Below are positions 8,002 through 47,048 of a stretch of 64,000 nt of DNA, in pieces (position 1 is the stretch's first letter; each line of letters begins with the position of its first letter). Below the pieces are notes generated by a model. It saw only the letters and a list, made by a program, of their open reading frames with translations. It was not told where the DNA came from and made no database searches. A program made the position numbers and the translations under genes. The stretch comes from Staphylococcus phage VB_SavM_JYL01: the sequence record MH159197.1; one strand, 5' to 3'.

Positions 8002-8007
8002 TAATTA

Positions 8008-8036
8008 AGACCAACTAAAAAGTTGGTCTTTTTTTA
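8008..8036 (+). terminator. rho-independent terminator
   Basis: agaccaact-aaaa-agttggtct followed by a T7 run. Confidence 0.7.
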
Positions 8037-8065
8037 TTGACAATTTATAATATCTATGATACACT
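8037..8065 (+). promoter_or_regulatory. sigma-A-type promoter TTGACA-17-TACACT directly abutting the terminator
   Basis: ttgacaatttataatatctatgatacact. Confidence 0.45.
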
Positions 8066-10740: not shown

Positions 10741-11038
10741 TATTTATGAGCAATTAATTAAAAATGATACAATACAAAACATTCATGAATCTCAAGATGA
10801 TGAAGGAAATATTTATACAATACAATTTGATAAAGGTAATGATAAGTATTTATTTAATGTTATCAATGATGGATTCTTGAAAGAAATGACAAATGGTATG
10901 GTAGACCATCCTAAAGGTCAACCATATTCAGTAAGTCTAATCAATAAAGAAACTCCTAGTATGTCAGTGAAACAATATTTAACAGACGTAGAAGATATTG
11001 TACCTACTATTAGAAAAATGGAAAAGGATTTCTTATAG
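10727..11038 (+). CDS. hypothetical protein (start MKFNDIYEQ)
   Basis: An SD caggagg sits 9 nt before ATG 10727, which overlaps the upstream stop. Confidence 0.55.
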   Translation: MKFNDIYEQLIKNDTIQNIHESQDDEGNIYTIQFDKGNDKYLFNVINDGFLKEMTNGMVDHPKGQPYSVSLINKETPSMSVKQYLTDVEDIVPTIRKMEKDFL

Positions 11039-11085
11039 AGTCAAGTCTTTACTTGACTCTTTTTACTATATATGGTATATTAATA
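11037..11085 (+). terminator. terminator hairpin whose 3' arm carries a TTGACT -35 (TTGACT-17-TATATT with a TGG extension)
   Basis: agagtcaagt-cttt-acttgactct followed by ttttt, then ...tatggtatattaatata. The same cassette recurs at 17031. Confidence 0.6.
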
Positions 11086-16969: not shown

Positions 16970-17032
16970 ATGACAACATTAATTGTCGTCATCTTTATTG
17001 CTATCATTTATTACTTATGGAACAGTGATTGA
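16970..17032 (+). CDS. 20-aa hydrophobic micro-ORF MTTLIVVIFIAIIYYLWNSD
   Basis: A strong SD aaggaggtga sits 6 nt upstream. The 3' end overlaps the terminator stem. Confidence 0.35.
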   Translation: MTTLIVVIFIAIIYYLWNSD

Positions 17033-17079
17033 GTCAAGTTAATTCTTGACTCTCTTTTTGTTTTATGGTATATTAATAT
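17031..17079 (+). terminator. terminator hairpin with embedded TTGACT -35 (TTGACT-17-TATATT); duplicate of the 11037 cassette
   Basis: gagtcaag-ttaatt-cttgactc followed by tcttttt, then ...tatggtatattaatata. Confidence 0.6.
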
Positions 17080-18370: not shown

Positions 18371-18583
18371 ATGGATAAAACATTACCAAAGTTTAGTGTA
18401 TATGAAGTTATTGTAAAGACTGTAATTATGACACCAACAGAAGGAAGTTCTGACCGAGAATCATTTTACTTTTCAACTCAAGAGTTAGCAGAAAGATTTG
18501 TTAAAGAAAACCAAGTAGAAACAAAAGATGGAAAGCGTGTATCTTTTTCTATTAAAGAGCGTAAAGTAAATCAACCAGGCTAA
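18371..18583 (+). CDS. hypothetical protein (start MDKTLPKF)
   Basis: An SD aaagggg sits 8 nt before ATG 18371. Confidence 0.5.
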   Translation: MDKTLPKFSVYEVIVKTVIMTPTEGSSDRESFYFSTQELAERFVKENQVETKDGKRVSFSIKERKVNQPG

Positions 18584-18635
18584 CATTAATTTGTTAGCTT
18601 TTTTTATTGACAAATCATTTTATATAGTGTATAGT
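18579..18635 (+). terminator. rho-independent terminator immediately followed by promoter TTGACA-17-TATAGT
   Basis: gctaaca-ttaatt-tgttagc followed by a T8 run, then ttgacaaatcattttatatagtgtatagt. Confidence 0.65.
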
Positions 18636-19760: not shown

Positions 19761-20049
19761 AGAAACAAATGTACTTTACAAAGATAAGTATAGAGATTAT
19801 ACTATAGTTGTAAGACTAGTAGGTAATATTATTGTTACTGAAGTAGATAAGAAGCATAAAACAAAATTTTCACCTATTATATTTGATAATGGTCGAGAAG
19901 GTGTAGAGCTTGTAATGCGTATCGGCTCAGAAGAACTTGATATGAAAGAACTTAGAGAATTTACTAAAGAGGTATCAACAGCTCAGAAAGCTTTAGAATA
20001 TTTTAATAAAAAACTTTACATTAAAGGCTTGACAGATGAAGCCTTTTAA
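19753..20049 (+). CDS. hypothetical protein
   Basis: 98-aa ORF with an SD aaggagaaaaag. Confidence 0.55.
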   Translation: MTKETNVLYKDKYRDYTIVVRLVGNIIVTEVDKKHKTKFSPIIFDNGREGVELVMRIGSEELDMKELREFTKEVSTAQKALEYFNKKLYIKGLTDEAF

Positions 20050-20096
20050 TATATACTAAGATTATAACTAAAACAAAGAAAAGAGGAATGATTATT

Positions 20097-24454: not shown

Positions 24455-24462
24455 AAAGTTTA

Positions 24463-24500
24463 AGAAACCTATTGACATTAGGTTTCTTTTATTATATACT
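24463..24500 (+). terminator. terminator hairpin with TTGACA in its loop; doubles as promoter TTGACA-16-TATACT
   Basis: agaaacc-tattgacatta-ggtttct followed by ttttattatatact. Confidence 0.6.
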
Positions 24501-27782: not shown

Positions 27783-27794
27783 ATAAATTTATAA

Positions 27795-27830
27795 ATACCT
27801 GTTGACAACAGGTATTTTTTATAGTATACT
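27795..27830 (+). terminator. terminator hairpin with embedded TTGACA; promoter TTGACA-17-TATACT
   Basis: atacctgtt-gac-aacaggtat followed by tttttt, then atagtatact. Confidence 0.6.
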
Positions 27831-31759: not shown

Positions 31760-31779
31760 TAAATATTTAAACTCCCTAT

Positions 31780-31817
31780 TGACAAAGGGAGTTTTTTATT
31801 ATATAGTATAACTATAG
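31780..31817 (+). terminator. terminator hairpin with TTGACA in its loop; promoter TTGACA-17-TATAGT
   Basis: aactccct-attgacaa-agggagtt followed by ttttt, then attatatagt. Confidence 0.65.
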
Positions 31818-32694: not shown

Positions 32695-32700
32695 ATTAGT

Positions 32701-32738
32701 ATCTACCTATTGACTTAGGTAGATATCTATTATATAAT
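32701..32738 (+). promoter_or_regulatory. hairpin with TTGACT in its loop; promoter TTGACT-17-TATAAT
   Basis: atctacct-attgactt-aggtagat, then atctattatataat. Confidence 0.55.
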
Positions 32739-35665: not shown

Positions 35666-35674
35666 ATTTAAGTA

Positions 35675-35703: not shown

Positions 35704-35726
35704 TAGTATATAAGGAGATGAATAAT

Positions 35727-36023: not shown

Positions 36024-36034
36024 GGGGAGTTATT

Positions 36035-36205: not shown

Positions 36206-36218
36206 AGGAGGTAGTAAA

Positions 36219-36987: not shown

Positions 36988-36999
36988 GGAGGAAATATA

Positions 37000-37290
37000 A
37001 TGATTCATATATTTGTAAAAGAGGATTATAATAAAGAAACATTAAGGAGTTTACTTGAATATATTAATGATACTGTAGGTAGGGAATTAACTTATGGTAT
37101 TAATACAGACTATGATAAGGATGTAGTGATTGAAACCGATGACCCTATAGATGAGGAGAATACGATTGATTTATCAAATCTTCCTCACTTTAAAGATGAC
37201 TTATGTATTCTTATAGAAGAATTATACTGTAAGGCATTTGTTAATGGGGAACCTATTATTATACGTAAGTATGTAGAGGGGATGTTATAA
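37000..37290 (+). CDS. hypothetical protein, paralog family A
   Basis: The protein is MIHIFVKEDYNKETLRSLLEYINDTVGRELTYGIN... The SD is gtaaggagg. Confidence 0.65.
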   Translation: MIHIFVKEDYNKETLRSLLEYINDTVGRELTYGINTDYDKDVVIETDDPIDEENTIDLSNLPHFKDDLCILIEELYCKAFVNGEPIIIRKYVEGML

Positions 37291-37577
37291 TGATTATAAT
37301 ATTTTTAACTGAAAAATATGATGCCAAGGCTTTAAAGAAAGTATTAGAACATATTGATAATTGTAGTAGCAGAGGTCTTAGCTATTTAATGGGAAAAGGA
37401 GAAGCGGATGTATGTATAGAGAAGAATGTATTCAGAGAAAGAGATGATGTAAGGATTAACTCAAACATTATTGATGAAGGTAAACTTTGTATACTCATAA
37501 ATAAAAATGGTTTAGAATGTAGTTACTATAGAGGTGTATCATGTAATATTGGTGCCTTTGTAAAGGAGAGATTATAA
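37290..37577 (+). CDS. hypothetical protein, paralog family A
   Basis: The protein is MIIIFLTEKYDAKALKKVLEHIDNCSSRGLSY... The SD is gagggg. Confidence 0.65.
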   Translation: MIIIFLTEKYDAKALKKVLEHIDNCSSRGLSYLMGKGEADVCIEKNVFRERDDVRINSNIIDEGKLCILINKNGLECSYYRGVSCNIGAFVKERL

Positions 37578-37870
37578 TGATAGAAATATATCTCAGTGAA
37601 AACTATGATAGGGATTTACTCAAAGCAGAATTAAAATGGATTAAAGAGACCGCTTCAAGAGAACTAACTTATGATGTTAATAGAAGCCCAGGATTAGATG
37701 TACATATTAGTCCTTTTAGATATACCAAGGATGAGGTTGAAGAAATGAGCTTACATCCTCAGTTTGAAGATGATGTATGTGTATTTATAGCTGAAACATG
37801 GATACATGAGTATCGTAATGGTAAATCAATAGGTGTAGATAGTATGGAAGAATATGTAAAGGAGATGTAA
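37577..37870 (+). CDS. hypothetical protein, paralog family A
   Basis: The protein is MIEIYLSENYDRDLLKAELKWIKETASRELTY... The SD is aaaggagag. Confidence 0.65.
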   Translation: MIEIYLSENYDRDLLKAELKWIKETASRELTYDVNRSPGLDVHISPFRYTKDEVEEMSLHPQFEDDVCVFIAETWIHEYRNGKSIGVDSMEEYVKEM

Positions 37871-37873
37871 TTA

Positions 37874-38122
37874 ATGGTAGAAACTTATTATACAGTATAT
37901 CATAAGAATAGTATGAAAACTATTAAGGATTACTTAAGTAGAAGTGATTTAATTGACTTCTTATATAAGACTTGGCATAAGGATATAAGTAATATATACC
38001 CAACAGATTATACTACGTATGAAACAAAATTCTGTATAGACATAGATGTAGTTAGATTAATTGAAGCGGTTAATGAAGAAGGTGTATTACTTATTAATGA
38101 AGGTAATATTGTAGAGTGGTAG
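37874..38122 (+). CDS. hypothetical protein, paralog family B
   Basis: The protein contains YTVYHKNSMKTIKDYLSRSD... The SD is aaggagatg. Confidence 0.6.
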   Translation: MVETYYTVYHKNSMKTIKDYLSRSDLIDFLYKTWHKDISNIYPTDYTTYETKFCIDIDVVRLIEAVNEEGVLLINEGNIVEW

Positions 38123-38134
38123 GAGGAGATAAAT

Positions 38135-38374
38135 ATGAGTCAGTTTTTCACGTATACAGTGTATCATACAGAAACAGCTAAAGTAGTAGCTAAGAATTTG
38201 TTTGATGCATCATTGGTGCACCTTATTAACAAGATGATAGAGAAAGATATAGTTAAGGATATTAATTTAGAATATTACATGAATACACGTGGTGTAGTTA
38301 TAGATATGAGTAGACTACTGGATGATATAGAATCACAGGGTGTATTTCTATTCAAACGTAAGCTACATGGATAA
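38135..38374 (+). CDS. hypothetical protein, paralog family B
   Basis: The protein contains TYTVYHTETAKVVAKNL...LLDDIESQGVFLF. The SD is taggaggag. Confidence 0.6.
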   Translation: MSQFFTYTVYHTETAKVVAKNLFDASLVHLINKMIEKDIVKDINLEYYMNTRGVVIDMSRLLDDIESQGVFLFKRKLHG

Positions 38375-38485
38375 TAGGTTAGACCCTAAAAAGTTTGAGA
38401 TACAATAGGATGCTTAGGATAATAGGATAAAAATAACTTAGGATGCTTAGGATGAAATACGATACGATAGGGAGGTTAAGTTAAG

Positions 38486-38725
38486 ATGCAAGAGTTAATA
38501 ACTTATATAATTTACCATAAAGAATCAGGTAAAGTAGTAGCACAGGATTTAAGTGAATTAGAAACTATTGAACTTATATACAAAATGATAGAAGAGGGAT
38601 TAGTAAAAGATATAGAATTATCTAACTACCGTCTTTTTAGTGGGAATATAGATATACTTAACTTATTAGTAGACATACGTAAACAAGGTATATTTGATTT
38701 TGAACATACTTGGCACACAAGATAA
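38486..38725 (+). CDS. hypothetical protein, paralog family B
   Basis: The protein contains TYIIYHKESGKVVAQDL...LLVDIRKQGIFDF. The SD is atagggagg. Confidence 0.6.
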   Translation: MQELITYIIYHKESGKVVAQDLSELETIELIYKMIEEGLVKDIELSNYRLFSGNIDILNLLVDIRKQGIFDFEHTWHTR

Positions 38726-38736
38726 GGAGGGATAGG

Positions 38737-39081
38737 ATGATAGTTATATATTCAGATGAGTCTAGGGATTACTTAAGAGATGAGTTCTTACCTTGGCTTA
38801 ATGATAGAGATAGATATTTAAAATATTATAAGAATGAGTTACCTGAAGATATAGACTCTTCTTATGTTGTATCAGTTGTATACTGTAGGGATATGGAAGG
38901 TCTTATGAATAGGAAAGATATTCTTATTGGTAATAGTTATAGAGAGCCTGTAGCTGTATTAGGTGTTCCTGAATTTTTTGGTAACTATTCTAATTATTAC
39001 TATTATAAAGGAGAGCATATAAGTAAGCATGACCTAGGAGAGATAATTAGGTTAAAGGCTTGGCAACGTAATTTTGACTAA
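38737..39081 (+). CDS. hypothetical protein (start MIVIYSDE)
   Basis: An SD aaggaggg sits 7 nt before ATG 38737. Confidence 0.55.
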   Translation: MIVIYSDESRDYLRDEFLPWLNDRDRYLKYYKNELPEDIDSSYVVSVVYCRDMEGLMNRKDILIGNSYREPVAVLGVPEFFGNYSNYYYYKGEHISKHDLGEIIRLKAWQRNFD

Positions 39082-39165
39082 GTAGCTCTCTCTAATTTCA
39101 CTAAGTAGCTCCCTAGGAATTGCCTAAGTAGCTCGGTGTGATTTTACCCTAAGTAGCTCCCTCTG
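39077..39165 (+). repeat. four direct repeats of CTAAGTAGCTC with 22-25 bp periodicity (iteron-like)
   Basis: gaCTAAGTAGCTCtctc, caCTAAGTAGCTCccta, gcCTAAGTAGCTCggtg and ccCTAAGTAGCTCcctc. Confidence 0.7.
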
Positions 39166-39196
39166 TTTTCTATTAGTTTATTTTAACCGCTTCACG

Positions 39197-39212
39197 TGTC
39201 TATATATAGACA
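39197..39212. promoter_or_regulatory. 16-bp perfect palindrome TGTCTATATATAGACA (operator-like)
   Basis: Read directly from the sequence. It lies in ORF-free DNA between the iteron-like repeats and -10-like boxes. Confidence 0.5.
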
Positions 39213-39565
39213 ATCGGAATAATAGCAGACCGCAAAAAGAAATACACTAGGATATTATTCCCAGTGTATTGTATAATTTTTTTATATAATATTTGTAGAA
39301 GCGGTTGGGGTTTGTCCCTTGCCTTACTACACTTAATATATTACAGTATAGTTATTCAGAAGTCAATACTTTTGAGTAACTTTTTTTTAAATTCTTTTTT
39401 CTTCTATATAATAGTAGTTTTTAGCCCTAAAAAAAGTTTTTTAAAAGAATTTACATTTTCTTATTGACTTATTAATCATATGATAGTAATATAAAGGTAC
39501 AGCAAGAGAACAGCAACAAGGTATTAGAATTATATAAAAAAATTATTTAATTGGAGATGATTTAA

Positions 39566-39874
39566 ATGGATGTAAAAGAAATTGCAGACACTATAATGGA
39601 GTTGTGGCAAATGGACGGATACAGATGTACAGAACCGCCATTATATGAAAGCACATTAAACCACACACGCACATACACGGCTTTAATTGTAAGCATTAAA
39701 GGTAATTACGACACTGTTCAAATGTTCCGTAAAACGCCTATAATGAGCATGAGAGGGCAAAGCCAACCGGCTAGCATGTTAGTAAATGTAATTGATGACG
39801 TGATTATAATCGTATATGAAAATACGGTTTACGGGGTACAGAATAAAGAAATAAAATTTATTGAAGAAATTTAA
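39566..39874 (+). CDS. hypothetical protein
   Basis: 102-aa ORF with an SD aattggagatg. Confidence 0.55.
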   Translation: MDVKEIADTIMELWQMDGYRCTEPPLYESTLNHTRTYTALIVSIKGNYDTVQMFRKTPIMSMRGQSQPASMLVNVIDDVIIIVYENTVYGVQNKEIKFIEEI

Positions 39875-39972
39875 AAATAGGGGTTGCAATACCCCTTAAG
39901 ATGTAGTAATATAATAGATGTAAGGGATAGCAACACACCTTAAAAAACTTTTTAAAAAAGTTAAAGAAAAGT

Positions 39973-40001
39973 GTTGACACCTTACAAGATACATGTTAAT
40001 A
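39973..40001 (+). promoter_or_regulatory. LTR early-type promoter TTGACA-N15-cATGTTAATATTAgt (extended -10 TGTTAATAT) with an upstream A6/T6 UP-like element
   Basis: ttaaaaaactttttaaaaaagttaaagaaaagtgttgacaccttacaagatacatgttaatattag. Confidence 0.5.
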
Positions 40002-40079
40002 TTAGTATAGAAGTTAAGACAAGCCACATAGCAAATAACGAAATTAAATAAAAAAATTATAGAATAGGATTTGATTATT

Positions 40080-40367
40080 ATGACAAACAAAAATTACTTA
40101 TACGAAGAAACTCACACAGTACAAGGGCAAGATATTACGGCTTTCAGAATTCCAAATGACACAAACGGCAACCCACGTTATGTAGTGCATTTCATGGATT
40201 TAGACATTAAACTAGCAGACTATGACAACATCAATAAGCTATACGGATTTAAAAAATATACTGCTAAATGGTTTGGCGGTGGTGTAGTATTCCAAAGCTA
40301 TAATATTGAAGATACATTAAATTACGCACTATCTAATGTTAAAGAAATAGAAGCGGTTAAGAATTAA
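40080..40367 (+). CDS. hypothetical protein (start MTNKNYLY)
   Basis: The conserved leader aggatttgattattATG is present. Confidence 0.55.
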   Translation: MTNKNYLYEETHTVQGQDITAFRIPNDTNGNPRYVVHFMDLDIKLADYDNINKLYGFKKYTAKWFGGGVVFQSYNIEDTLNYALSNVKEIEAVKN

Positions 40368-40376
40368 AACCGCTTC
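40350..40376. other. inverted repeat GAAGCGGTT-(9)-AACCGCTTC overlapping the gene stop
   Basis: gaagcggttaagaattaaaaccgcttc. Confidence 0.6.
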
Positions 40377-40416
40377 TGAATTAAATAAAAAAATTATATA
40401 AAAAGGGTATGATATT

Positions 40417-40608
40417 ATGAAATTTAAAATAGAAAAAAATAACAGTGATATAAAAACTTTATGGAATTTAGCTAAAAATGGATATATGAGTTATCAAACT
40501 GTACACAATATATTTAAAAATGAATCAGATGAATTTATTATATTTAACAGTAAACAAACTTATAATAAATTTATGGAATTAAGATATAATAGAAGTGCAA
40601 TTCAATAG
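40417..40608 (+). CDS. hypothetical protein
   Basis: 63-aa ORF with an SD aaaagggtatg. Confidence 0.5.
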   Translation: MKFKIEKNNSDIKTLWNLAKNGYMSYQTVHNIFKNESDEFIIFNSKQTYNKFMELRYNRSAIQ

Positions 40609-40619
40609 TATAAAAAAGT

Positions 40620-40665
40620 TATATAATTCCCTAGGATTAAATTCCTAGGGATTTTTATTTGTTTT
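40620..40665 (+). terminator. terminator-like hairpin
   Basis: ccctaggatt-aaa-ttcctaggg followed by atttttattt. Confidence 0.5.
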
Positions 40666-40699
40666 AATTTATATAAAAAAATTATTTAATAAATAAATT

Positions 40700-41100
40700 A
40701 GTGTAAAATTGACTGTTGACAAGAATATATTTTTTATGGTATAATGAAGTGAAGACCTTTTTTAGTATAAAAAAATTATTATATAAAAAAATTATATAAA
40801 AAAGTTTAGTTCCGGTCTTTCTCCCCACCTTGTCATATTTATAGTGGAAGGGTTAGGCGGGTTACCACTGTTTTACTTTCTATATATAGTATACTATGAA
40901 TAATGGTAATTGTCAACACCTTTCAGAAACTTTTTTTACTTTATTTTATTATTATATAAAAAAATTATACATATTTTAGGGCTCCACTTCCATTATATAA
41001 TAATTCGGTCTTAATGTCAATACTTTTATTCAAAAAAGTTTTTTAAATTAGTTTCAACAAATCTATTGACTTATGTTTATTTCTATAGTAATATATAGTT
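40700..41100. repeat. intergenic repeat element, copy A (about 390 bp; homologous to 42890..43150, with a diverged core at 45520..45600)
   Basis: The shared order is as follows. A + promoter ttgaca..tataatgaagtgaa comes first, followed by ttttttagtataaaaa and attatataaaaaaattatataaa. A GC-rich core ggtcttt..cccc follows, then a leftward TTGACA-17-TATACT promoter. It closes with aaaaaagtttt..aaatctattgactta..taatatatag. Confidence 0.65.
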
Positions 41101-41124
41101 ATACCAACAAGGGAGGCAATACAA

Positions 41125-41283
41125 ATGCTAAAATTTAAATGGAAAAACAAAACAATCAAATCAACTCAAAAAACGGATAACATTCTTTTACTTCTTATAG
41201 GTGGTTTAGTTGCAACAGTCACACCTAAACTTGTAAACTGGTTTTTACTACTACAAGATAATATAAATATTTTTTTAAGATAA
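41125..41283 (+). CDS. 52-aa membrane protein (below the track cutoff)
   Basis: An SD caagggagg sits 9 nt before the ATG. The protein has one TM helix. Confidence 0.45.
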   Translation: MLKFKWKNKTIKSTQKTDNILLLLIGGLVATVTPKLVNWFLLLQDNINIFLR

Positions 41284-41331
41284 CTATTGACAACTTAGAA
41301 ACAACGTGTTAATATTAAGATACAAGGTAAG

Positions 41332-41351
41332 GGAAGCGGTTGACCGCTTCC
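41332..41351. promoter_or_regulatory. palindrome GGAAGCGGT-tg-ACCGCTTCC directly downstream of promoter 41287 (operator-like)
   Basis: ttgacaacttagaaacaacgtgttaatattaagatacaaggtaagggaagcggttgaccgcttccgacc. Confidence 0.5.
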
Positions 41352-41449
41352 GACCTAAATAAAAAAAGTTTAAAAAAACTATTGACAGTCACTTGAAACC
41401 ATGATATTATTAAGATAACAAAAAACAAACAGAAAAGGAATTGATTATA

Positions 41450-41773
41450 ATGAAATTTATCAAAACTATCGAAAACTTATTAGAAAAAGCAGAAAACAAA
41501 GGGCAAGCAATTTTAAACGGTCGTTACTTTGATGGGTATAGCAAAGGTGAGCTTGAGGAAAAATATGCAATTGAAATTGATGGCAACAAATTGATTATGC
41601 GTCACTGGGGTACACAAACAATTGAGATTGATTTAAGCATAAATGAGATTGTTTCATATTACGGTGAAAGCAATTCAGACCGTGACAGTTTAAACACACT
41701 TGTATATTGCTTAGGAATTGCGCCAAACTTTAGATACTTACCAAGCAAAAACTTATTCATTTACGAAAATTAA
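41450..41773 (+). CDS. hypothetical protein (start MKFIKTIENL)
   Basis: The conserved leader aaaaggaattgattataATG is present. Confidence 0.55.
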   Translation: MKFIKTIENLLEKAENKGQAILNGRYFDGYSKGELEEKYAIEIDGNKLIMRHWGTQTIEIDLSINEIVSYYGESNSDRDSLNTLVYCLGIAPNFRYLPSKNLFIYEN

Positions 41774-41782
41774 TTAAATAAA

Positions 41783-41815
41783 GGGCTTGACTTCCAAGCC
41801 CTACCATGTTATTAT
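41783..41815 (+). promoter_or_regulatory. hairpin with TTGACT in its loop followed by an extended -10 (hairpin-embedded -35 cassette)
   Basis: agggcttg-acttc-caagccct, then accatgttattattaa. Confidence 0.5.
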
Positions 41816-41872
41816 TAAATTGTAAGGTAATCAAGCACAACGACAAAATAAACTGAAAAGGGATTGATGAAA

Positions 41873-42379
41873 ATGACAAATAATAAGGATTTTAATAAAA
41901 ATTTCTTAAGACTACTAAAAGTTAAAAATGTAAATGACAAAAGGGTGCAAGGTTTCATAAACAAGCATGACATTAAACTTAAAGACAAAGAAGAAAGCTC
42001 ACAAGGATATGTTAACGTATTATATAAGGGTTATGACTTTGTAATATCAAAAGACTATGCAGGTCAAACGGCGTTATATGTTAACATGCGTAATTTAGGG
42101 GTTGACTACAAACATTTTAAACATTTAGATTTTAATAATATTGTTCAAGCGTTAGACAGAAAAAATAATAATCGTGTTGAATGTAAGGAAACAAAAACAC
42201 AACAATATAAAGAATTTAAACACCGTCAAAAGACAGAAAAAGAAATGTTAACATACTATGAAAAGGATATCGAAAAGCTAAAAGAAGAACTGGAACGAAC
42301 ACAAAAAATCTACAATGATAAAATAAAGAAAATAGAAAATTACGATAAAAAAATATCTAGACTAAAAAAATCAAAATAA
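41873..42379 (+). CDS. hypothetical basic/coiled-coil protein (start MTNNKDF)
   Basis: The conserved leader aaagggattgatgaaaATG is present. Confidence 0.55.
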   Translation: MTNNKDFNKNFLRLLKVKNVNDKRVQGFINKHDIKLKDKEESSQGYVNVLYKGYDFVISKDYAGQTALYVNMRNLGVDYKHFKHLDFNNIVQALDRKNNNRVECKETKTQQYKEFKHRQKTEKEMLTYYEKDIEKLKEELERTQKIYNDKIKKIENYDKKISRLKKSK

Positions 42380-42448
42380 GGCTTGACACTTTCAAGCCCT
42401 CATGATATACTTAGTATAACAAATCAAAAAGAAAAGGAATTGATGAAA

Positions 42449-42829
42449 ATGTTCAAATTACAAAATAAAGTGGAAATTATCGTACCTAAGGAAGATAACA
42501 ACGGCGTTGAGATTGCAGACAAACGTATTAAAGAATATGTAAATAGCATCACAATGGAAGCGGGTGGTTGTACTATTACAGAAATCAAAGGGCAATGGTA
42601 CTCAGAAGATGAAAAACGTATAATGGAAGATAACAACTTAAATCTTGAGTGGTACTACATGCAAGACAGTGCCAAATTCATGACAGTTGAATTAAAAGGC
42701 ATTGTAAGACGTTTAATTGAAGTTTACGGACAAGAAGCAATAAGCATTAAAGTTAACGGCACATTGTACATTGTAGACCAATCAGACATTGAAGAATTAC
42801 ACACAACATTATTAAATATCATGAAATAA
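42449..42829 (+). CDS. hypothetical protein (start MFKLQNKVEI)
   Basis: The conserved leader aaaaggaattgatgaaaATG follows the hairpin-promoter aaggcttgacactttcaagccct. Confidence 0.55.
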   Translation: MFKLQNKVEIIVPKEDNNGVEIADKRIKEYVNSITMEAGGCTITEIKGQWYSEDEKRIMEDNNLNLEWYYMQDSAKFMTVELKGIVRRLIEVYGQEAISIKVNGTLYIVDQSDIEELHTTLLNIMK

Positions 42830-42889
42830 AAAATTTATATAAACCGCTTCGGATTAAATTCTTGAAGTGGTTATTTTCTTTTAAATTAG

Positions 42890-43150
42890 TGCTTGACAAA
42901 TGTACTAAAAAATGAGATAATGAAGTGAACGCATTTTTTAGTATAAAAATAATATTATATAAAAAAATTATATAAATGAATTTATTTCAGGTCTTTCCCG
43001 TAACCCCTCTTGGGCTACCCTGGTATCTCTACAATTATTATTATACTATAGGTCATGAAGATTGTCAATAACTTTCTTCAAAATAATTTATTTAAAAAAG
43101 TTTCATAAATCTATTGACTTACTATTAATTATGGTGTAATATATAGATAT
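42890..43150. repeat. intergenic repeat element, copy B
   Basis: Aligns with copy A. It contains the leftward promoter TTGACA-17-TATAAT (RC of attattatactataggtcatgaagattgtcaata) and the GC core ggtctttcccgtaacccctcttgggctaccctggta. Confidence 0.65.
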
Positions 43151-43271
43151 AAGGTTAAGGAAGCGGAACACCTAAAAAAGAAATTAAAAAAACTTTTAAA
43201 AAGGTGTTGACAAACTTCAAACCACATGTTAATATTAAGATAACAAATAAAACAAAAAGGAATTGATAATT

Positions 43272-43493
43272 ATGAACAGATTAGAAATAATAAAAGACAC
43301 GGCAATGGAATACATCATTATGATGGATAACGGAGTTATGGACGGACAATTGACACAAGAAGAATACAACGAAGCGGTTAGCTTTGAAAAGGTTTACGAT
43401 TACACTTTATCAGAAGCAAATCAAGAATGTAAATTCTTAGGCGGTAAAATTTTAACTTTCCTAGTACATGAAGCAATTGAAGAATACGCATAA
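43272..43493 (+). CDS. hypothetical acidic protein (start MNRLEIIK)
   Basis: The conserved leader aaaaggaattgataattATG is present. Confidence 0.5.
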   Translation: MNRLEIIKDTAMEYIIMMDNGVMDGQLTQEEYNEAVSFEKVYDYTLSEANQECKFLGGKILTFLVHEAIEEYA

Positions 43494-43574
43494 AAAAACT
43501 TAATCAAAGGGGTTGACATTCAACCCCTTACCATGTTAATATTAATATATACCAAATGAGAGGAATTGATAATT

Positions 43575-43712
43575 ATGAGATACGAAATCGTAACATTAGT
43601 TAATGGAGAATTATTCATGTTTGCAACATTTAAGAAAGCAGAGGCAGAAAATAAATATCAAGAATGGTGTGACTTGTACGGTCAAGAAAATGTAAGCATG
43701 GAAAAAAATTAA
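43575..43712 (+). CDS. 45-aa hypothetical protein (below the track cutoff)
   Basis: The leader agaggaattgataattATG follows the hairpin-promoter aaggggttgacattcaacccctt. Confidence 0.4.
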   Translation: MRYEIVTLVNGELFMFATFKKAEAENKYQEWCDLYGQENVSMEKN

Positions 43713-43782
43713 AATAAGGGGTTGACACTTAACCCCTTAGATGTTATTATTAATATATACTAAAGAAAAGGAAATGATAAAA

Positions 43783-44019
43783 ATGAAATTATTAAACCAA
43801 GAAAATGAAATCGTAAAAGAAATGGTAACTTTTAGAGACGTAAAACAAGCCCTAATTTGGGAATACATCGACCACATAGATAATAACATCCTAAACAATG
43901 AAATTCATGACACAGAAGCGGTTGTGGTTACTTCTGAGACTCTACAATCAATCAAATTTGCAGACACTATGGAAGACCTGCAGGAATACATTGCAGATAT
44001 CAATTGGAAATTAGTTTAA
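43783..44019 (+). CDS. hypothetical protein (start MKLLNQENEIV)
   Basis: The leader aaaaggaaatgataaaaATG follows the hairpin-promoter aaggggttgacacttaacccctt. Confidence 0.5.
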   Translation: MKLLNQENEIVKEMVTFRDVKQALIWEYIDHIDNNILNNEIHDTEAVVVTSETLQSIKFADTMEDLQEYIADINWKLV

Positions 44020-44113
44020 AAAAAGTTTTAAATAACTGTTGACACCTTAGCAAATAGATGGTAATATAAGAGTATAAAGAAAAACAAAAAAAAACGAAAA
44101 GGATTTGATTATA

Positions 44114-44458
44114 ATGACAAACTTACTAAACACTATTGAGATGGATTTTGAATACTATGGAGTACAATTTGAAAATGGATGGAAACACAATGCCTACACT
44201 GTAGAGCTAACACATAATGGAGTTACCGAAGAATTTGACTGGAAACAAGGAATAGGAATTCACGAAGAGCCTGAACTAGAAAGCATCTTAGAAAGCTTAA
44301 TGCTAGATATTCATTACTATGAAGAAGATATTTATTCAATGTATGAGGACGAAGAACAGGCAGAAAAAATAATTGAGAAGTTAGAAGAACAAACTAAAAA
44401 GGTAAATAAACTATTTACAGATGAGGAACAAGCAGACCTAGTTGAATACTTTGAATAG
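44114..44458 (+). CDS. hypothetical acidic protein (start MTNLLNTIEM)
   Basis: The leader aaaaggatttgattataATG follows promoter 44039 ttgacaccttagcaaatagatggtaatat. Confidence 0.55.
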   Translation: MTNLLNTIEMDFEYYGVQFENGWKHNAYTVELTHNGVTEEFDWKQGIGIHEEPELESILESLMLDIHYYEEDIYSMYEDEEQAEKIIEKLEEQTKKVNKLFTDEEQADLVEYFE

Positions 44459-44483
44459 TATCAGGAAACACACAGAGACCCAC

Positions 44484-44505
44484 AGAAGCGGATTAATCCG
44501 CTTCT
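44484..44505. other. 22-bp perfect palindrome AGAAGCGGATTAATCCGCTTCT
   Basis: Read directly from the sequence. It sits immediately after the stop of 44114..44458. Confidence 0.6.
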
Positions 44506-44532
44506 AATATAATTAATCAGGAGATGTTAAAG

Positions 44533-44697
44533 ATGACAATTAAAGAGGTTATAAGCCAATTAGAATTAGTAGAAAATAAAGAACTTGAATTGTACGTATG
44601 CGACAAGGAAAATAATAACATTTCAATTAATGATATTATTTTGTTCGATAGTGAAGCAGAGCACACAGAAAACAACCCACTAGGGATTAATTATTAG
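44533..44697 (+). CDS. 54-aa hypothetical protein (below the track cutoff)
   Basis: The leader aatcaggagatgttaaagATG duplicates the leader of the 44710 gene. Confidence 0.45.
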   Translation: MTIKEVISQLELVENKELELYVCDKENNNISINDIILFDSEAEHTENNPLGINY

Positions 44698-44709
44698 GAG
44701 ATGTTGAAC

Positions 44710-44883
44710 ATGAACACAAGAAGGGTAAACAAAGCGTTAAACGAAGCAGTTAGATTATTAGACAAGCAAATAGCAGACACACAGAAAACAATGCAGGAGT
44801 TAAATAAACAACTAGAACAACAGATAAAAGCTAAGCAGGAGCTAATGACATTAGTTGATGCTATGACTGGTGATGATGAGTAA
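44710..44883 (+). CDS. hypothetical coiled-coil protein (start MNTRRVNK)
   Basis: The leader attaggagatgttgaacATG is present. Confidence 0.5.
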   Translation: MNTRRVNKALNEAVRLLDKQIADTQKTMQELNKQLEQQIKAKQELMTLVDAMTGDDE

Positions 44884-45152
44884 TGAACGTTAGAGAGGTT
44901 CATGATGTCGTTAAGAGTGCAAAGAGCAAACTCCTGCAGGAGCAGAATAATATTAATAATGTAATGATATATGAATACATCACAGAAGAGCTTCACAGAC
45001 GCACACAGAGAAGCGGAACAATACAGATGAACAATAACACCGCTTCATATAGTAATGGCTCATATGGTAGCTTAGAAGAGCTTAGAGAAGCTTATGACCT
45101 CTCTTCTCTATCTACTGATGAGATTAAAGAACTACTTGAAACATTTGTTTAA
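44883..45152 (+). CDS. hypothetical protein
   Basis: 89-aa ORF whose start overlaps the upstream stop. Confidence 0.5.
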   Translation: MNVREVHDVVKSAKSKLLQEQNNINNVMIYEYITEELHRRTQRSGTIQMNNNTASYSNGSYGSLEELREAYDLSSLSTDEIKELLETFV

Positions 45153-45236
45153 ATTATTTTATCAAAACGCTTTACAATCTTTTAGTTTGTATGATATAAT
45201 GAACTTAACAAATTAAAAGAAAAGGAAATGATGAAC

Positions 45237-45458
45237 ATGAGAGACTTACAAGAGAGAAAAAGAGAATTAAAAACATTACTATTTAACTTAGCCATAGAGA
45301 AGAATAGAGCAACGGATGAGCAGTTAAGAGAAGTATTAGAACAATCACATCAAGAAGTGATGTATCAATTAAATAAAGTTAGAAAAGAAATTGAAATTTT
45401 AGTTGAAGAAAAAGAAAGAGAATTTTGGAATGATTTCGATTTTAATGGATTAGATTAA
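45237..45458 (+). CDS. hypothetical protein (start MRDLQERK)
   Basis: Promoter TTTACA-18-TGaTATAAT is followed by the leader aaaaggaaatgatgaacATG. Confidence 0.5.
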   Translation: MRDLQERKRELKTLLFNLAIEKNRATDEQLREVLEQSHQEVMYQLNKVRKEIEILVEEKEREFWNDFDFNGLD

Positions 45459-45486
45459 GAGGGAATAAAATCCCTCTTTTATTTTT
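45459..45486 (+). terminator. rho-independent terminator
   Basis: agaggga-ataaaa-tccctct followed by tttatttttat. Confidence 0.65.
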
Positions 45487-45519
45487 ATCCTATTATATAA
45501 TTTTTTTATATTATACGGG

Positions 45520-45600
45520 GGCAGGGGTAAAATGCCACTCAATGGGGGTGGGTCTATATACCCCTACGGTCTACCCAGGTACTTATTTTTTGGGGAAAAT
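45520..45600. repeat. GC-rich structured element, third diverged copy of the repeat core
   Basis: gggtctatatacccctacggtctacccaggtac aligns with copy B ggtctttcccgtaacccctcttgggctaccctggta. It is followed by ttattttttgggg. Confidence 0.4.
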
Positions 45601-45620
45601 TATGAAAATAAATATTTAAA

Positions 45621-45742
45621 AGTCAACACATAAAATATAGAAAGTAAGTCAACATCCCTTATAATAAGTCAACATTATAACCTTACTTGGTAAGTCAACA
45701 ATTTATAGTACAAATATAAAGCCTCTAAATATAAAGTCAACA
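45621..45742. repeat. five direct repeats of (T/A)AAGTCAACA at irregular spacing (26/20/26/42 bp)
   Basis: Copies lie at 45621, 45647, 45667, 45693 and 45735. The reverse complement TGTTGACTT matches the left-side copy atgttgactaataagg at 35007-35024. Confidence 0.65.
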
Positions 45743-45783
45743 TATATAAAATAAGAAGAGAGGTATATCCTCTCCTCTCTTAA

Positions 45784-46074
45784 CTAGATAAGTACGATTC
45801 TATTATTTAGTTCCTGTTCTATTCTATTTAAATGCTCCCAAACCTCAATCCAGTTTACTCTTGAATCATCATAATAAAGGTGGAAATCTTGAGGGTTTTC
45901 TAAATATGCTTCTAGTTCATCATAGTATAGAACATCAAAAGCTGTGTCATCAAGACCTATTTGAATCTTTAGTATATCTCTATATCCTAATTGTTTATTA
46001 CCGCAATAAGCTGTATCTTCTAACCGCTTCTCTAGTTTATTAAATAGTGTTTGTATACCTTGTAGTTCATTCAT
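45784..46074 (-). CDS. hypothetical protein
   Basis: 96-aa ORF with an SD aggagg (RC) 9 nt before the start. It contains one GAAGCGG motif. Confidence 0.6.
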   Translation of the reverse strand: MNELQGIQTLFNKLEKRLEDTAYCGNKQLGYRDILKIQIGLDDTAFDVLYYDELEAYLENPQDFHLYYDDSRVNWIEVWEHLNRIEQELNNRIVLI

Positions 46075-46163
46075 AATGTATGACCTCCTAATTGATTATA
46101 TACTTAGTATAAAGGATAGGTGTTAGAATGTCAACCTTTATATATAAAAAAAGAGAAAGAATA

Positions 46164-46412
46164 TTATTCTTCCTCTAAGGTATTACTAATAACTTCTAAT
46201 TCATGAATAGTAATCATATCCATTCTATCGAATCCTCTTGGGTCTCCTTTAATGAACTCTTGTTCTCCTCTATGGGTTATACTTTCTTTGTATCCTTCTT
46301 CTTTAATACGTTTAATTAAGTTCTCCTTATTTGTGTATATCTCATCTTCCCTGAAATGGAAATTATCTTCATAAGGTTCACAATTATCGTGTTCTACTTG
46401 ATATAGTTTCAT
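46164..46412 (-). CDS. hypothetical protein
   Basis: 82-aa ORF with an SD aaggagg (RC). Confidence 0.55.
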   Translation of the reverse strand: MKLYQVEHDNCEPYEDNFHFREDEIYTNKENLIKRIKEEGYKESITHRGEQEFIKGDPRGFDRMDMITIHELEVISNTLEEE

Positions 46413-46427
46413 ATTAGTTATCCTCCT

Positions 46428-46673
46428 TTACTCTCTATAATAATCATATATTTCTAAGTAAGGTGAGAATGGTGAGTCACCTCTAGTATTAATAATAACT
46501 TCTCCCTCTTTGTTACTTAACTCTATAAGCTCTTCTAAGCTATTAATTTCTACACACCAACGTTCTATAGTAAATGGATTACCTTTTTGGTCTACACGTT
46601 CTAATTCCTTTATATAGGCACCTTCTATAGGCTTTTTATTAATTGTGCTTGTTCTATCTATAAAAAATTCCAT
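46428..46673 (-). CDS. hypothetical protein
   Basis: 81-aa ORF with an SD aaggagg (RC). Confidence 0.55.
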   Translation of the reverse strand: MEFFIDRTSTINKKPIEGAYIKELERVDQKGNPFTIERWCVEINSLEELIELSNKEGEVIINTRGDSPFSPYLEIYDYYRE

Positions 46674-46689
46674 TAGTTACCCTCCTTTT

Positions 46690-46803
46690 TTAAAATTTAA
46701 TAACTACTTCTATCTTTACACTAGGTTCTTTTTGTTTTGCTAATTGTTTTGCAATTAAATCTTTATTTTTTAGTTCTTCTTGTATTTCATACATAGACTT
46801 CAT
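46690..46803 (-). CDS. 37-aa small protein (start MKSMYEIQ)
   Basis: An SD aaggagg (RC) sits 8 nt before the internal ATG of the track ORF 46690..46878. Confidence 0.35.
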   Translation of the reverse strand: MKSMYEIQEELKNKDLIAKQLAKQKEPSVKIEVVIKF

Positions 46804-46805
46804 GC

Positions 46806-47048
46806 TTAATCCTCCTTTATATTCTCTTCTAATATTTGTTTTAATGTTTGACAATCTTTTTGGTCTAGGGTGTCCCAACTCTCTAGATTCTGTAATTGAT
46901 AGTGGAGTTCATTTGCAATTTCATCGAAGGCTTTTGCTTTTTGATAGACTTCTTGTAACTCTTCTAATTCTTTTTCATTATCAATACACCAGTAGTTCTC
47001 GTTGTCAGTTATAATATCTTGAATTTTATTTTTATATTCATAAGCCAT
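46806..47048 (-). CDS. hypothetical acidic protein
   Basis: 80-aa ORF with an SD aggaggg (RC). Confidence 0.5.
   Translation of the reverse strand: MAYEYKNKIQDIITDNENYWCIDNEKELEELQEVYQKAKAFDEIANELHYQLQNLESWDTLDQKDCQTLKQILEENIKED

What the first reader, a model, noticed from the sequence alone, without database searches (positions are those of the whole stretch)
39880..44070. Recurrent hairpin-embedded -35: palindromes that contain TTGACA fused to an extended -10
Inside the block the units aagggcttgacttccaagccct, aaggcttgacactttcaagccct, aaggggttgacattcaacccctt and aaggggttgacacttaacccctt place the -35 hexamer in the loop or 3' arm of a GC-rich hairpin. The extended -10 follows within 15-17 nt. 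Outside the block the same design recurs with a T-run: 24463 and 31780 (TTGACA in the loop), 32701 (TTGACT in the loop), and 27795, 11037 and 17031 (-35 in the 3' arm or stem-loop junction). At 8008 and 18579 the -35 instead abuts directly after the terminator's T-run. One element thus terminates the upstream transcript and initiates the next. The palindromic -35 could also act as an operator for a dimeric regulator that occludes sigma region 4.
Basis: seen in the sequence. Interest (0 to 1): 0.6.

Follow-up and report, generated by a model that had tools for sequence, protein, structure and literature searches.

The report
Promoter-hairpin cassettes of a staphylococcal phage
The recurring hairpins that hold a -35 box are real: they are the compact junctions between genes of a Staphylococcus Kayvirus phage, where a host-type promoter is fused to a stem-loop or terminator. 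This design can be read off published RNA-seq tables for related phages and resembles the known "PeSL" cassettes of T4-like phages, so it is tidy biology rather than a new mechanism.

Summary
The window is a Kayvirus (phage K-like, Herelleviridae) genome, and the block 39880-44070 lies in its long terminal repeat (LTR), which carries early "Tre" genes. Four GC-rich hairpins (41782, 42378, 43507, 43715), plus a TTGCAA unit at 39879, enclose the -35 of strong extended -10 promoters. Seven more such units lie outside the block. Of 34 perfect hairpins in the window, 11 contain TTGACW, against 0.08 in shuffles. A conservative test that re-places hairpins within the same intergenic segment still gives P=0.006.

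Outside the block these are true terminator/promoter fusions. The same sequences are listed both as RNA-seq-mapped terminators and as promoters in phages 515A1 and K.

Inside the block the stems are kept by compensatory changes across 15 related LTRs. However, they lack a U-tract on the sense strand, and unit A is listed only as an early promoter in phage K. They occur only directly after stop codons. They are part of about 90-nt repeated cassettes at which LTR gene modules are swapped; P108 gives a clean example.

The closest known analogue is the PeSL promoter/stem-loop cassette of T4-like phages. The operator idea is not supported. Verdict: new member of a known kind, modest interest.

The parts
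39879..39912 (+). TTGCAA unit after the TreJ-like gene. Short hairpin AGGGGT-TGCAAT-ACCCCT (39879-39896) with the -35-like TTGCAA (39884-39889) in its loop; -10 TAATAT at 39907-39912. In a longer context, an alternative long hairpin reaching about 39936 encloses the whole promoter.
   Evidence: Homologue p11 of 515A1 was used for the RNA-seq promoter matrix. Phage K shows a marked transcript end after gp010 at this long hairpin. Stem varies with compensation in L009, L011, L014, L015.
41782..41815 (+). Unit A. Hairpin AGGGCTTG-ACTTC-CAAGCCCT (41782-41802); -35 TTGACT 41787-41792; TG 41807-41808; -10 TATTAT 41810-41815. It starts 9 nt after the stop codon of the TreP-like gene. The cassette runs on to the SD and start codon near 41867-41875.
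   Evidence: The phage K homologue TTGACTTTCAAGCCCTACCATGTTATTAT is the early promoter of gp017. It is annotated as a promoter in fRuSau02.
42378..42411 (+). Unit B. Hairpin AAGGCTTGA-CACTT-TCAAGCCCT (42378-42400) overlapping the stop codon of the 170-aa gene; -35 TTGACA 42383-42388; -10 TATACT 42406-42411.
   Evidence: Variants with longer stems occur in L006, L010, L013. This unit and the gene before it are absent from P108, through a crossover between cassettes A and B.
43507..43542 (+). Unit C. Hairpin AAGGGGTTGA-CAT-TCAACCCCTT (43507-43529); -35 TTGACA 43513-43518; spacer 18; -10 TAATAT 43537-43542.
   Evidence: conserved in 8 or more LTRs
43715..43750 (+). Unit D. Hairpin TAAGGGGTTGA-CAC-TTAACCCCTTA (43715-43739); -35 TTGACA 43722-43727; -10 TATTAT 43745-43750.
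   Evidence: present in 10 of the 16 LTRs compared (the window plus nine of the 15 related LTRs)
39974..44067 (+). LTR early promoters of the same class but without a hairpin. Their -35 boxes start at 39974, 40716, 41287, 41382, 42893, 43207 and 44039. They share the A-rich upstream region, TGn plus TAATAT-type -10, and the AAAGGAATTGATnAnnATG SD/start context.
   Evidence: 515A1 p11_1, p15, p16, p17; phage K promoters #4, 7, 9, 11
11037..11081 (+). Terminator/promoter fusion: hairpin 11037-11060, -35 TTGACT (11053) in the 3' arm, U-tract in the spacer, -10 TATATT.
   Evidence: = 515A1 t165/p166; phage K terminator #40 and promoter #63
17031..17074 (+). Terminator/promoter fusion: hairpin 17031-17052, -35 TTGACT (17046) in the 3' arm.
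   Evidence: = 515A1 t174/p175; phage K #43/#67
20023..20057 (+). Hairpin AAAGGCTT-GACAGATG-AAGCCTTT with -35 TTGACA (20029) at the 5' arm/loop junction; -10 TATACT.
   Evidence: The 515A1 homologue p182 is a promoter only, and the hairpin is degraded there.
24462..24500 (+). Terminator/promoter fusion: hairpin 24462-24488 with TTGACA (24472) in the loop. The 3' arm plus U-tract forms the 17-nt spacer; -10 TATACT.
   Evidence: = 515A1 t194/p195; phage K #44/#68
27793..27830 (+). Terminator/promoter fusion: hairpin 27793-27817, -35 TTGACA (27802) at the 5' arm/loop junction.
   Evidence: = 515A1 t198/p199 (duplicated loop there); phage K #45/#69
31769..31807 (+). Terminator/promoter fusion: hairpin 31769-31794 with TTGACA (31779) in the loop.
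   Evidence: = 515A1 t204/p205; phage K #46/#70
32700..32738 (+). Hairpin 32700-32725 with TTGACT (32710) in the loop and a weak T-tail (score 1.2-2.1).
   Evidence: Promoter only in 515A1 (p208) and phage K (#71); not listed as a terminator in either.
8007..8065 (+). Canonical terminator 8007-8030 plus T-run, with -35 TTGACA (8037) directly after it.
   Evidence: = 515A1 t160/p161
18579..18635 (+). Canonical terminator 18579-18598 plus T-run, with -35 TTGACA (18607) directly after it.

Best explanation
The elements are gene-junction cassettes of a Kayvirus that relies on host sigma-A RNA polymerase. Each joins a consensus promoter (TTGACW, 17 nt, TGn plus a TATAAT-like -10) to a GC-rich stem-loop placed right after the stop codon of the gene before it. 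There are two grades.

(1) Outside the LTR the stem-loop is a full intrinsic terminator. Its loop or 3' arm carries the -35, and its 3' arm and U-tract fill the promoter spacer. One 40-nt element therefore ends one transcription unit and starts the next. This is shown by RNA-seq in close relatives.

(2) In the LTR block the stem-loop overlaps the -35 further upstream and has no sense-strand U-tract. The promoter function is well supported, since unit A drives an abundant immediate-early transcript in phage K. The stem is under selection for pairing. I infer that it marks the 3' boundary of the upstream message as an attenuator or 3'-end stabiliser. Together with the A-rich upstream tract it would also stop any antisense transcription.

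The whole cassette of about 90 nt (hairpin, promoter, leader, SD) is repeated about ten times per LTR at 75-90% identity. It is the place where small ORFs are inserted, deleted and exchanged between phages. In this it works like the PeSL cassettes of T4-like phages.
For: Identity: the window matches 251 Staphylococcus Kayvirus records, and the block lies in the annotated LTR of Stab20.

Transcript starts and ends: 515A1 Tables S2/S3 and phage K Tables S2A/B list the same sequences as promoters and terminators. By my count about 24 of the 43 terminators of 515A1 are fused to a promoter.

Selection for pairing: there are 41 distinct units in 15 other LTRs, with stems GGGC/GCCC, GGGG/CCCC, GCGG/CCGC and GGCGG/CCGCTCC. 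On 18 units in the same register, 93% of cells are paired. Pair 14-26 is CG in 10 and GC in 8, with none broken. None of 500 shuffles reaches the observed covariation score, and slid controls drop to 60% paired or less.

A different genus, Twort, has the same design with unrelated stems.

The hairpin belongs to a gene end. In the window LTR, 5 of 7 promoters that directly follow a stop codon have a hairpin, against 0 of 5 that follow a terminator or another promoter. Across all loci the split is 43/57 against 38/89 (Fisher P=1.5e-4), and 11 of the 14 exceptions are one intragenic false positive.

Module exchange: 56 of 68 clusters of homology end-points fall in intergenic or gene-edge DNA, which makes up 41.6% of the region (P about 6e-12). 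P108 carries a chimera of cassettes A and B and lacks the ORF between them, with the crossover in the shared SD-ATG stretch. Stab20 has one extra cassette plus ORF.

PeSL anatomy and function come from Arbiol 2010 and Comeau 2014.
Against: No RNA 3'-end data exist for units B-D, and none was reported at unit A in phage K. The boundary role of the block hairpins is therefore inferred, not shown.

Their sense-strand tails are poor for intrinsic termination.

Many LTR junction promoters work without any hairpin: 38 distinct contexts. In 515A1, K and fRuSau02 the homologues of the 39879 unit lack the short hairpin, and fRuSau02 carries a related promoter with unit B's upstream context (AAGGCTTGACA) but no 3' arm. 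The hairpin is therefore dispensable for promoter use.

Breakpoints at gene edges are also what selection against broken genes would leave, and short cross-hits between paralogous cassettes inflate the end-point count.

The conservative placement test is only moderately significant (P=0.006).
Confidence: 0.6

Rival explanations
1. Each LTR hairpin would be an efficient sense-strand intrinsic terminator that ends the upstream early transcript, while its -35 starts the next one.
For: The outside units do exactly this. In Kayvirus LTRs, hairpins without a U-tract can coincide with transcript ends: 515A1 t11 and phage K terminator #3 after gp010, at the homologue of the 39879 unit. The region after the stems is T-rich from about 5 nt on (TGTTATTATTA). 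From general knowledge, NusA and NusG help weak terminators in Firmicutes.
Against: T-tail scores are 0.8-2.2, against 3.4-5.0 for verified terminators. The first 8 nt after the stems are ACCATGTT, CATGATAT, ACCATGTT and GATGTTAT. No terminator is listed after gp016 in phage K, although unit A is present there. The unit at 32700 has a similarly weak tail and is listed as a promoter only in both studies.
Confidence: 0.2
2. The block hairpins would be mainly antisense (minus-strand) terminators. Hairpin plus upstream A-run reads as hairpin plus U-tract on the minus strand. This would shield the early genes from leftward transcription coming from the minus-strand promoters at 43068, 41020 and 40916, or from read-through of the leftward gene arm to the right of the LTR.
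For: Minus-strand T-tail scores are 3.1-3.8, in the range of verified terminators. The terminator scan called units A, B, D and 39879 on the minus strand. Strong leftward promoters exist inside the LTR (515A1 p13), and the genes from 46000 onward are transcribed towards the LTR.
Against: The A-rich upstream tract is not specific to hairpin units. Non-hairpin LTR promoters have the same minus-strand score at the same offset (2.64 against 2.50, P=0.89), so it is explained as a general promoter or stop-codon feature. Dedicated terminators already follow the leftward promoters (42845-42872, 40628-40651, 45753-45779). The G.U wobble asymmetry test does not favour either strand (5 against 5).
Confidence: 0.2
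3. The palindromes would be operators for a dimeric phage or host regulator that occludes the -35 and shuts off early LTR promoters.
For: The palindromes overlap the -35, and LTR genes are expressed very early. The phage K authors speculate about repressor candidates gp126 and gp201.
Against: Half-sites differ between units in the same genome and change in a compensatory way. Loop, and hence half-site spacing, varies from 3 to 7 nt, and the 3' arm shifts relative to the promoter. Outside units have entirely unrelated stems. Most LTR early promoters have no palindrome yet are equally early.
Confidence: 0.06
4. The stem-loops would be DNA-level recombination signals, for example cruciforms or a target of a phage recombinase or nuclease, which drive cassette exchange. 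On this view they are not RNA elements.
For: Exchange points cluster at the cassettes. One breakpoint, in Metroid, falls exactly at the 5' base of hairpin A. The PeSL authors raised the same idea for GGGG...CCCC stems, and T4 deletions end at GGGC/GCCC repeats. HNH endonuclease genes sit in Kayvirus LTRs.
Against: The clean P108 crossover lies in the SD-ATG stretch, not in the hairpin. Cassettes without a hairpin are exchanged as well. Stems of 8-10 bp extrude poorly as cruciforms (general knowledge). Plain homologous recombination between 75-90% identical cassettes is sufficient to explain the exchanges.
Confidence: 0.08

Closest known systems
PeSL (promoter-early stem-loop) cassettes of T4-like phages RB49/phi1, PST/T4, nt-1/KVP40 (Arbiol et al. 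2010, PMC2839356; Comeau et al. 2014, PMC4122927)
   Same: The order of parts is the same: stop codon of the upstream ORF, AT-rich tract, strong sigma-70-type early promoter, GC-rich stem-loop (GGGG..CCCC or A3-4G3..C3T3-4) that may overlap the -35, then SD and start codon. Both are multi-copy over about 100 nt. Both are concentrated in a hyperplastic region full of small ORFans. Indels between close relatives are bounded by the cassettes, with chimeric cassettes left behind.
   Different: The phage family and host differ (Herelleviridae on a Gram-positive host, with no sequence homology). The location is the long terminal repeat. The promoters have an extended -10. Terminator activity and mini-circles were shown experimentally for PeSLs but are untested here. 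Here the sense-strand U-tract is missing.
RNA-seq-mapped early promoters and rho-independent terminators of Kayvirus 515A1 and phage K (Kornienko 2020, PMC7698491; Finstrlova 2022, PMC9241854)
   Same: The outside-block units are the same sequences as t165/p166, t174/p175, t194/p195, t198/p199, t204/p205 and t160/p161. Unit A is the same as phage K early promoter #10.
   Different: Those papers list promoters and terminators in separate tables and do not comment on their physical fusion. Units B-D lie in an LTR segment that 515A1 and K lack.
Host-takeover module in the terminal redundancy of Bacillus phage SPO1 (own knowledge, not tested here)
   Same: It is a terminal repeat of a Herelleviridae phage packed with short early genes, each behind a strong host-type promoter and separated by terminators.
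   Different: I did not examine SPO1 sequence, so whether the -35 boxes lie inside hairpins there is unknown.
Morons of lambdoid phages (a gene with its own promoter and terminator)
   Same: They are self-contained expression units added between existing genes.
   Different: Moron flanks are not a conserved repeated cassette and are not thought to mediate the insertion (discussion in Arbiol 2010).

Membership tests
PeSL-type composite promoter/stem-loop cassette | Strong sigma-70-type early promoter | tested here: met
   10-12.5 of 12(+1) consensus matches with TG extension. The unit A homologue is an early promoter in phage K RNA-seq.
PeSL-type composite promoter/stem-loop cassette | Stable stem-loop within or overlapping the promoter, after the upstream stop codon and an AT-rich tract, and followed by SD and start codon | tested here: met
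   Stop-to--35 distances are 3-19 nt. The shared SD context is AAAGGAATTGATnAnnATG.
PeSL-type composite promoter/stem-loop cassette | Multi-copy conserved cassette in a hypervariable, ORFan-rich region | tested here: met
   Cassettes cross-match at 75-82% over 88-140 nt. The LTR is mosaic among 237 records.
PeSL-type composite promoter/stem-loop cassette | Indels and replacements between close relatives are bounded by cassettes, leaving chimeric cassettes | tested here: met
   56 of 68 end-point clusters lie at junctions. P108 carries an A/B chimera. Stab20 has an extra cassette plus ORF.
PeSL-type composite promoter/stem-loop cassette | The stem-loop is an effective terminator or attenuator | tested here: inconclusive
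   The hairpins are stable, but the sense T-tail scores only 0.8-2.2. No 3'-end data exist for units B-D, and none was reported at unit A.
PeSL-type composite promoter/stem-loop cassette | Formation of cassette-bounded mini-circles | not testable with these tools
   Needs inverse PCR on infected cells.
PeSL-type composite promoter/stem-loop cassette | Occurs in T4-like phages (common descent with the described PeSLs) | tested here: not met
   The window is a Kayvirus, Herelleviridae. The relation is analogy, not homology.
Rho-independent (intrinsic) terminator, sense strand: block units A-D | GC-rich hairpin | tested here: met
   dG -9.7 to -15.1 kcal/mol
Rho-independent (intrinsic) terminator, sense strand: block units A-D | U-tract immediately 3' of the stem | tested here: not met
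   Tails are ACCATGTT, CATGATAT, ACCATGTT and GATGTTAT, with T score 0.8-2.2. The feature is met on the minus strand (3.1-3.8).
Rho-independent (intrinsic) terminator, sense strand: block units A-D | RNA 3' ends map to the element | not testable with these tools
   No raw RNA-seq is available. The published phage K table lists none at unit A.
Rho-independent terminator fused to a promoter: outside-block units | Hairpin plus U-tract, with 3' ends and 5' ends both mapped to the element | tested here: met
   T score is 3.4-5.0. The same sequences appear as terminators and promoters in 515A1 and K. Exceptions are 32700 and 20023, which are promoters only.
Operator of a dimeric repressor | One conserved palindromic sequence with fixed half-site spacing, recurring at the regulated promoters | tested here: not met
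   Stems co-vary, loops are 3-7 nt, and the register shifts.

The most novel reading that the evidence does not exclude
The Kayvirus LTR cassettes would be a convergently evolved Gram-positive counterpart of PeSLs. That is, they would be regulatory cassettes that actively drive exchange of early ORFans (including excised mini-circles), rather than merely surviving at gene boundaries. In addition, the zero-distance terminator/promoter geometry found genome-wide (about 24 of 43 terminators in 515A1) would exploit post-termination one-dimensional recycling of host RNA polymerase. The enzyme would be released on top of the next promoter and re-initiate there, which would help a phage that must capture host polymerase within 2 minutes.
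Probability: 0.2. Interest if true: 0.6.

Novelty: new member of a known kind. Interest (0 to 1): 0.33.

Why it matters
Kayviruses are the main therapeutic phages against S. aureus, and their LTR genes are the first to be expressed and are thought to take over the host.

Knowing that LTR gene junctions are standard cassettes of about 90 nt (hairpin, promoter, leader, SD) at which ORFs are swapped explains why the LTR is so mosaic between otherwise 95%-identical phages. It also gives natural, insulated insertion points for engineering.

The genome-wide fusion of terminators to promoters is a compact design rule. It can be read off published RNA-seq tables, but the Kayvirus papers I searched do not state it. 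It offers a natural test bed for the polymerase-recycling model of termination.

None of this changes current understanding of transcription. It extends the PeSL idea to a second, unrelated phage family.

Tried and rejected
- Rfam (E<=1) on 35000-47000 found nothing relevant.
- MAFFT of all 28 unit variants could not align the 3' arms, because the fixed -35 to -10 spacing holds the alignment while the hairpin register differs by 0, +1 or +2 nt. I therefore counted pairs only on the 18 units in the same register, and I give the other classes as listed stems.
- G.U wobble strand-asymmetry test, meant to decide whether the sense or the antisense RNA is the selected form: 5 G.T against 5 A.C, inconclusive.
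- Idea that the upstream A-run is a hairpin-specific antisense U-tract: rejected as specific evidence, because non-hairpin promoters have the same A-richness.
- Naive enrichment (11 against 0.08) overstates the case. A within-segment placement null gives 10 against 5.0.
- The automated classification of 515A1 terminators was distorted by spurious outer pairs in the MFE folds, so I reclassified by eye.
- Literature searches of the Kayvirus transcriptome papers for 'hairpin', 'overlap' and 'palindrom' found no discussion of the fusion.
- I did not run protein searches or structure predictions, since the finding concerns non-coding elements.

Full report
**What the window is.** The block 39880-44070 matches 251 Staphylococcus phage records at 80-99% identity, all Kayvirus-like (Twortvirinae, Herelleviridae). 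It lies inside the annotated long terminal repeat (LTR) of phage Stab20, among the short 'Tre' genes. Base-composition skew and the ORF layout show rightward genes up to about 45.6 kb and leftward genes beyond that. The window is therefore a circularly permuted phage K-like genome, and the finding sits in the early, host-takeover part of the LTR.

**The observation.** The four block units are perfect or near-perfect hairpins at 41782-41802, 42378-42400, 43507-43529 and 43715-43739. A fifth unit, with TTGCAA, is at 39879-39896. Each contains a -35 box, then a spacer of 17 nt (18 in one case), then TGn and a TATAAT-like -10. They fold at -9.7 to -15.1 kcal/mol with z-scores of -2.5 to -4.7, and they stay folded in 140-nt contexts.

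Two details of the description need correcting. In the block units the -35 straddles the 5' arm and the loop. None of them has a T-run after the stem on the + strand.

**Is it more than chance?** The window has 34 perfect hairpins, against 6.0+-2.4 in dinucleotide shuffles. Eleven of them contain TTGACW, against 0.08 in shuffles. That comparison is generous, because hairpins and promoters both live in short intergenic spacers. When each hairpin is re-placed at random inside its own intergenic segment, 5.0+-1.7 overlaps are expected and 10 are seen (P=0.006). The effect is real, but part of it is packing.

**Units outside the block.** Published RNA-seq work on two close relatives settles these. 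In phage 515A1 (Kornienko 2020), Table S3 lists t165, t174, t194, t198 and t204 as terminators found at coverage drops. Table S2 lists p166, p175, p195, p199 and p205 as promoters found at coverage rises. Each pair is the same sequence as window 11037, 17031, 24462, 27793 and 31769 respectively. Phage K (Finstrlova 2022) lists the same pairs.

The geometry is exact: the 3' arm and the U-tract make up the 17-nt spacer. T-tract scores are 3.4-5.0. The units at 32700 and 20023 have weak tails and are listed only as promoters.

Going through the 515A1 tables, I count about 24 of its 43 terminators as fused to a promoter:
- 7 have the -35 in the core hairpin.
- 4 enclose most of a promoter.
- 8 have the -35 directly after the U-tract.
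- 5-6 involve the late -10-only promoter.

The authors do not comment on this. Phage Twort, a different genus, has four such fusions with unrelated stems.

**Units inside the block.** Here the evidence splits.

*Promoter function is well supported.* The phage K homologue of unit A (TTGACTTTCAAGCCCTACCATGTTATTAT) is the early promoter of gp017, one of five transcripts abundant at 2 min. It is also annotated as a promoter in fRuSau02.

*Sense-strand termination is not supported by sequence.* The first bases after the stems are ACCATGTT, CATGATAT, ACCATGTT and GATGTTAT, with T scores of 0.8-2.2. Phage K lists no terminator after gp016. On the minus strand the same hairpins are followed by T-rich tails (scores 3.1-3.8). 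However, that A-richness upstream of the -35 is shared by LTR promoters without hairpins (2.64 against 2.50), so it is not specific evidence for an antisense role.

*One partial exception.* At the homologue of the 39879 unit, phage K shows a marked transcript end without a U-tract, and 515A1 shows a transcript start. There a longer hairpin encloses the whole promoter, and the window can form it too.

**Are the block hairpins selected?** Yes. In 15 other LTRs (L001-L015) there are 41 distinct units, with stems GGGC/GCCC, GGGG/CCCC, GCGG/CCGC, GGCGG/CCGCTCC and AAGGC/GCCTT. On 18 units in the same register:
- 93% of cells are paired.
- One pair is CG in 10 and GC in 8, with none broken.
- No shuffle reaches the observed covariation score.
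- Sliding the partner by one column drops pairing to 60%.

Loop length varies from 3 to 7 nt, and the 3' arm shifts by up to 2 nt relative to the -10. This is what selection for pairing produces. It is not what a single dimeric operator would show, so the operator idea is set aside. A test of G.U asymmetry, meant to tell which strand's RNA matters, was inconclusive.

**What the hairpin belongs to.** In the window LTR, hairpins occur at 5 of the 7 promoters that directly follow a stop codon. They occur at none of the 5 promoters that follow a canonical terminator or another promoter. Across all loci the association holds (P=1.5e-4), and nearly all exceptions are one intragenic false positive. 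The stem-loop therefore behaves as a 3'-end element of the upstream gene that has been packed into the next promoter. It is not a part of the promoter as such, and many junction promoters do without it.

**Cassettes and mosaicism.** The units are the 5' part of cassettes of about 90 nt: hairpin, promoter, leader, and the SD/start context AAAGGAATTGATnAnnATG. These cassettes cross-match at 75-82% identity. The LTR is highly mosaic among Kayviruses. Homology end-points between the window and 15 other LTRs fall in junction DNA in 56 of 68 clusters, although junction DNA makes up only 41.6% of the region.

P108 gives a clean case. It has cassette A up to GAAAAGG, followed by cassette B's ATTGATGAAAATG and the gene after B. 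It lacks the 170-aa ORF between them. Stab20 has one extra cassette plus a 57-aa ORF. In Metroid the homology ends exactly at the first base of hairpin A. Botka 2019 also noted an LTR gene duplication bordered by the SD-like motif TAGGAT.

**Comparison with what is known.** The anatomy and the behaviour match the PeSL cassettes of T4-like phages. Those consist of a stop codon, an AT-rich tract, a sigma-70 promoter and a GGGG..CCCC stem-loop that may overlap the -35, followed by SD and ATG. They are multi-copy in hyperplastic ORFan regions, and they lie at indel boundaries as chimeras. The match is by analogy only, since the phage family and host are different. Terminator activity and mini-circles are untested here, and the sense U-tract is missing. 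A literature search on the PeSL terms returned, besides the two defining papers, only passing mentions, and none of the listed titles concerns staphylococcal or Herelleviridae phages.

**Verdict.** It is unproven for the units inside the block, which are better described as PeSL-like promoter/stem-loop cassettes. The operator idea is rejected. This is a new member of a known kind and of modest interest.

The most novel reading still open has two parts: that the cassettes actively drive ORFan exchange, and that the fused geometry exploits polymerase recycling after termination. Both need experiments.

Noticed in passing
window 40700-41130 and 42880-43170: There are two copies of a non-coding module of 300-400 bp with convergent consensus promoters (+40716 and +42893; -40916, -41020 and -43068). 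The -41020 promoter equals 515A1 p13, which drives the leftward HNH gene TreM in other phages. That gene is missing here. The convergent transcripts would overlap by about 100 nt. Phage K snc002 lies in the corresponding gp012-gp013 intergenic region.
   Followed up: partly
window 40349-40377, 41332-41351, 44484-44505: A family of GAAGCGG...CCGCTTC hairpins has no U-tract on either strand and is followed by GAAyTAAATAAAAAA. The one at 41332 (TTGACC in its loop) lies in a short leader RNA from promoter 41287, which corresponds to phage K snc003. 515A1 t11 is such a hairpin and coincides with an RNA-seq coverage drop.
   Followed up: partly
window 39879-39936: There are alternative structures here. 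ACCCCT pairs either with the upstream AGGGGT (short hairpin, -35 in the loop) or takes part in a long hairpin GGGGTTGC...GCAAC that encloses the whole promoter (dG -16 in a 75-nt fold). Transcripts that start at this promoter would carry only the 3' half.
   Followed up: partly
window 6471-6524 (+) and about 61100-61165 (-): The late, -10-only promoter TGTTATATTA sits in the 5' arm of large terminator hairpins (dG -29 and -27), which equal 515A1 t157/pL158 and t50. This is the same packing rule applied to the phage sigma-factor promoters.
   Followed up: partly
515A1 Table S3 t198, against window 27793-27817: In 515A1 the loop of this terminator carries a tandem duplication (CCTGTTGACAG twice), which gives two -35 boxes. 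The window has one copy.
   Followed up: no
window 41125-41283 (TreN-like gene), site at about 41210: GGTTTAGTTG-CAACAGTCA-CACCTAAACT is an imperfect hairpin around TTGCAA inside the TreN coding sequence, conserved in most LTRs. My scan flagged it as promoter-like, but it is probably a coding-sequence coincidence.
   Followed up: no
window 50555-50584 and 55892-55913 (minus strand): In the leftward arm the terminators are of the abutting type only (T-run followed at once by TTGACT or TTGACA). No -35-in-hairpin unit occurs in the 18 kb of that arm present in the window.
   Followed up: no
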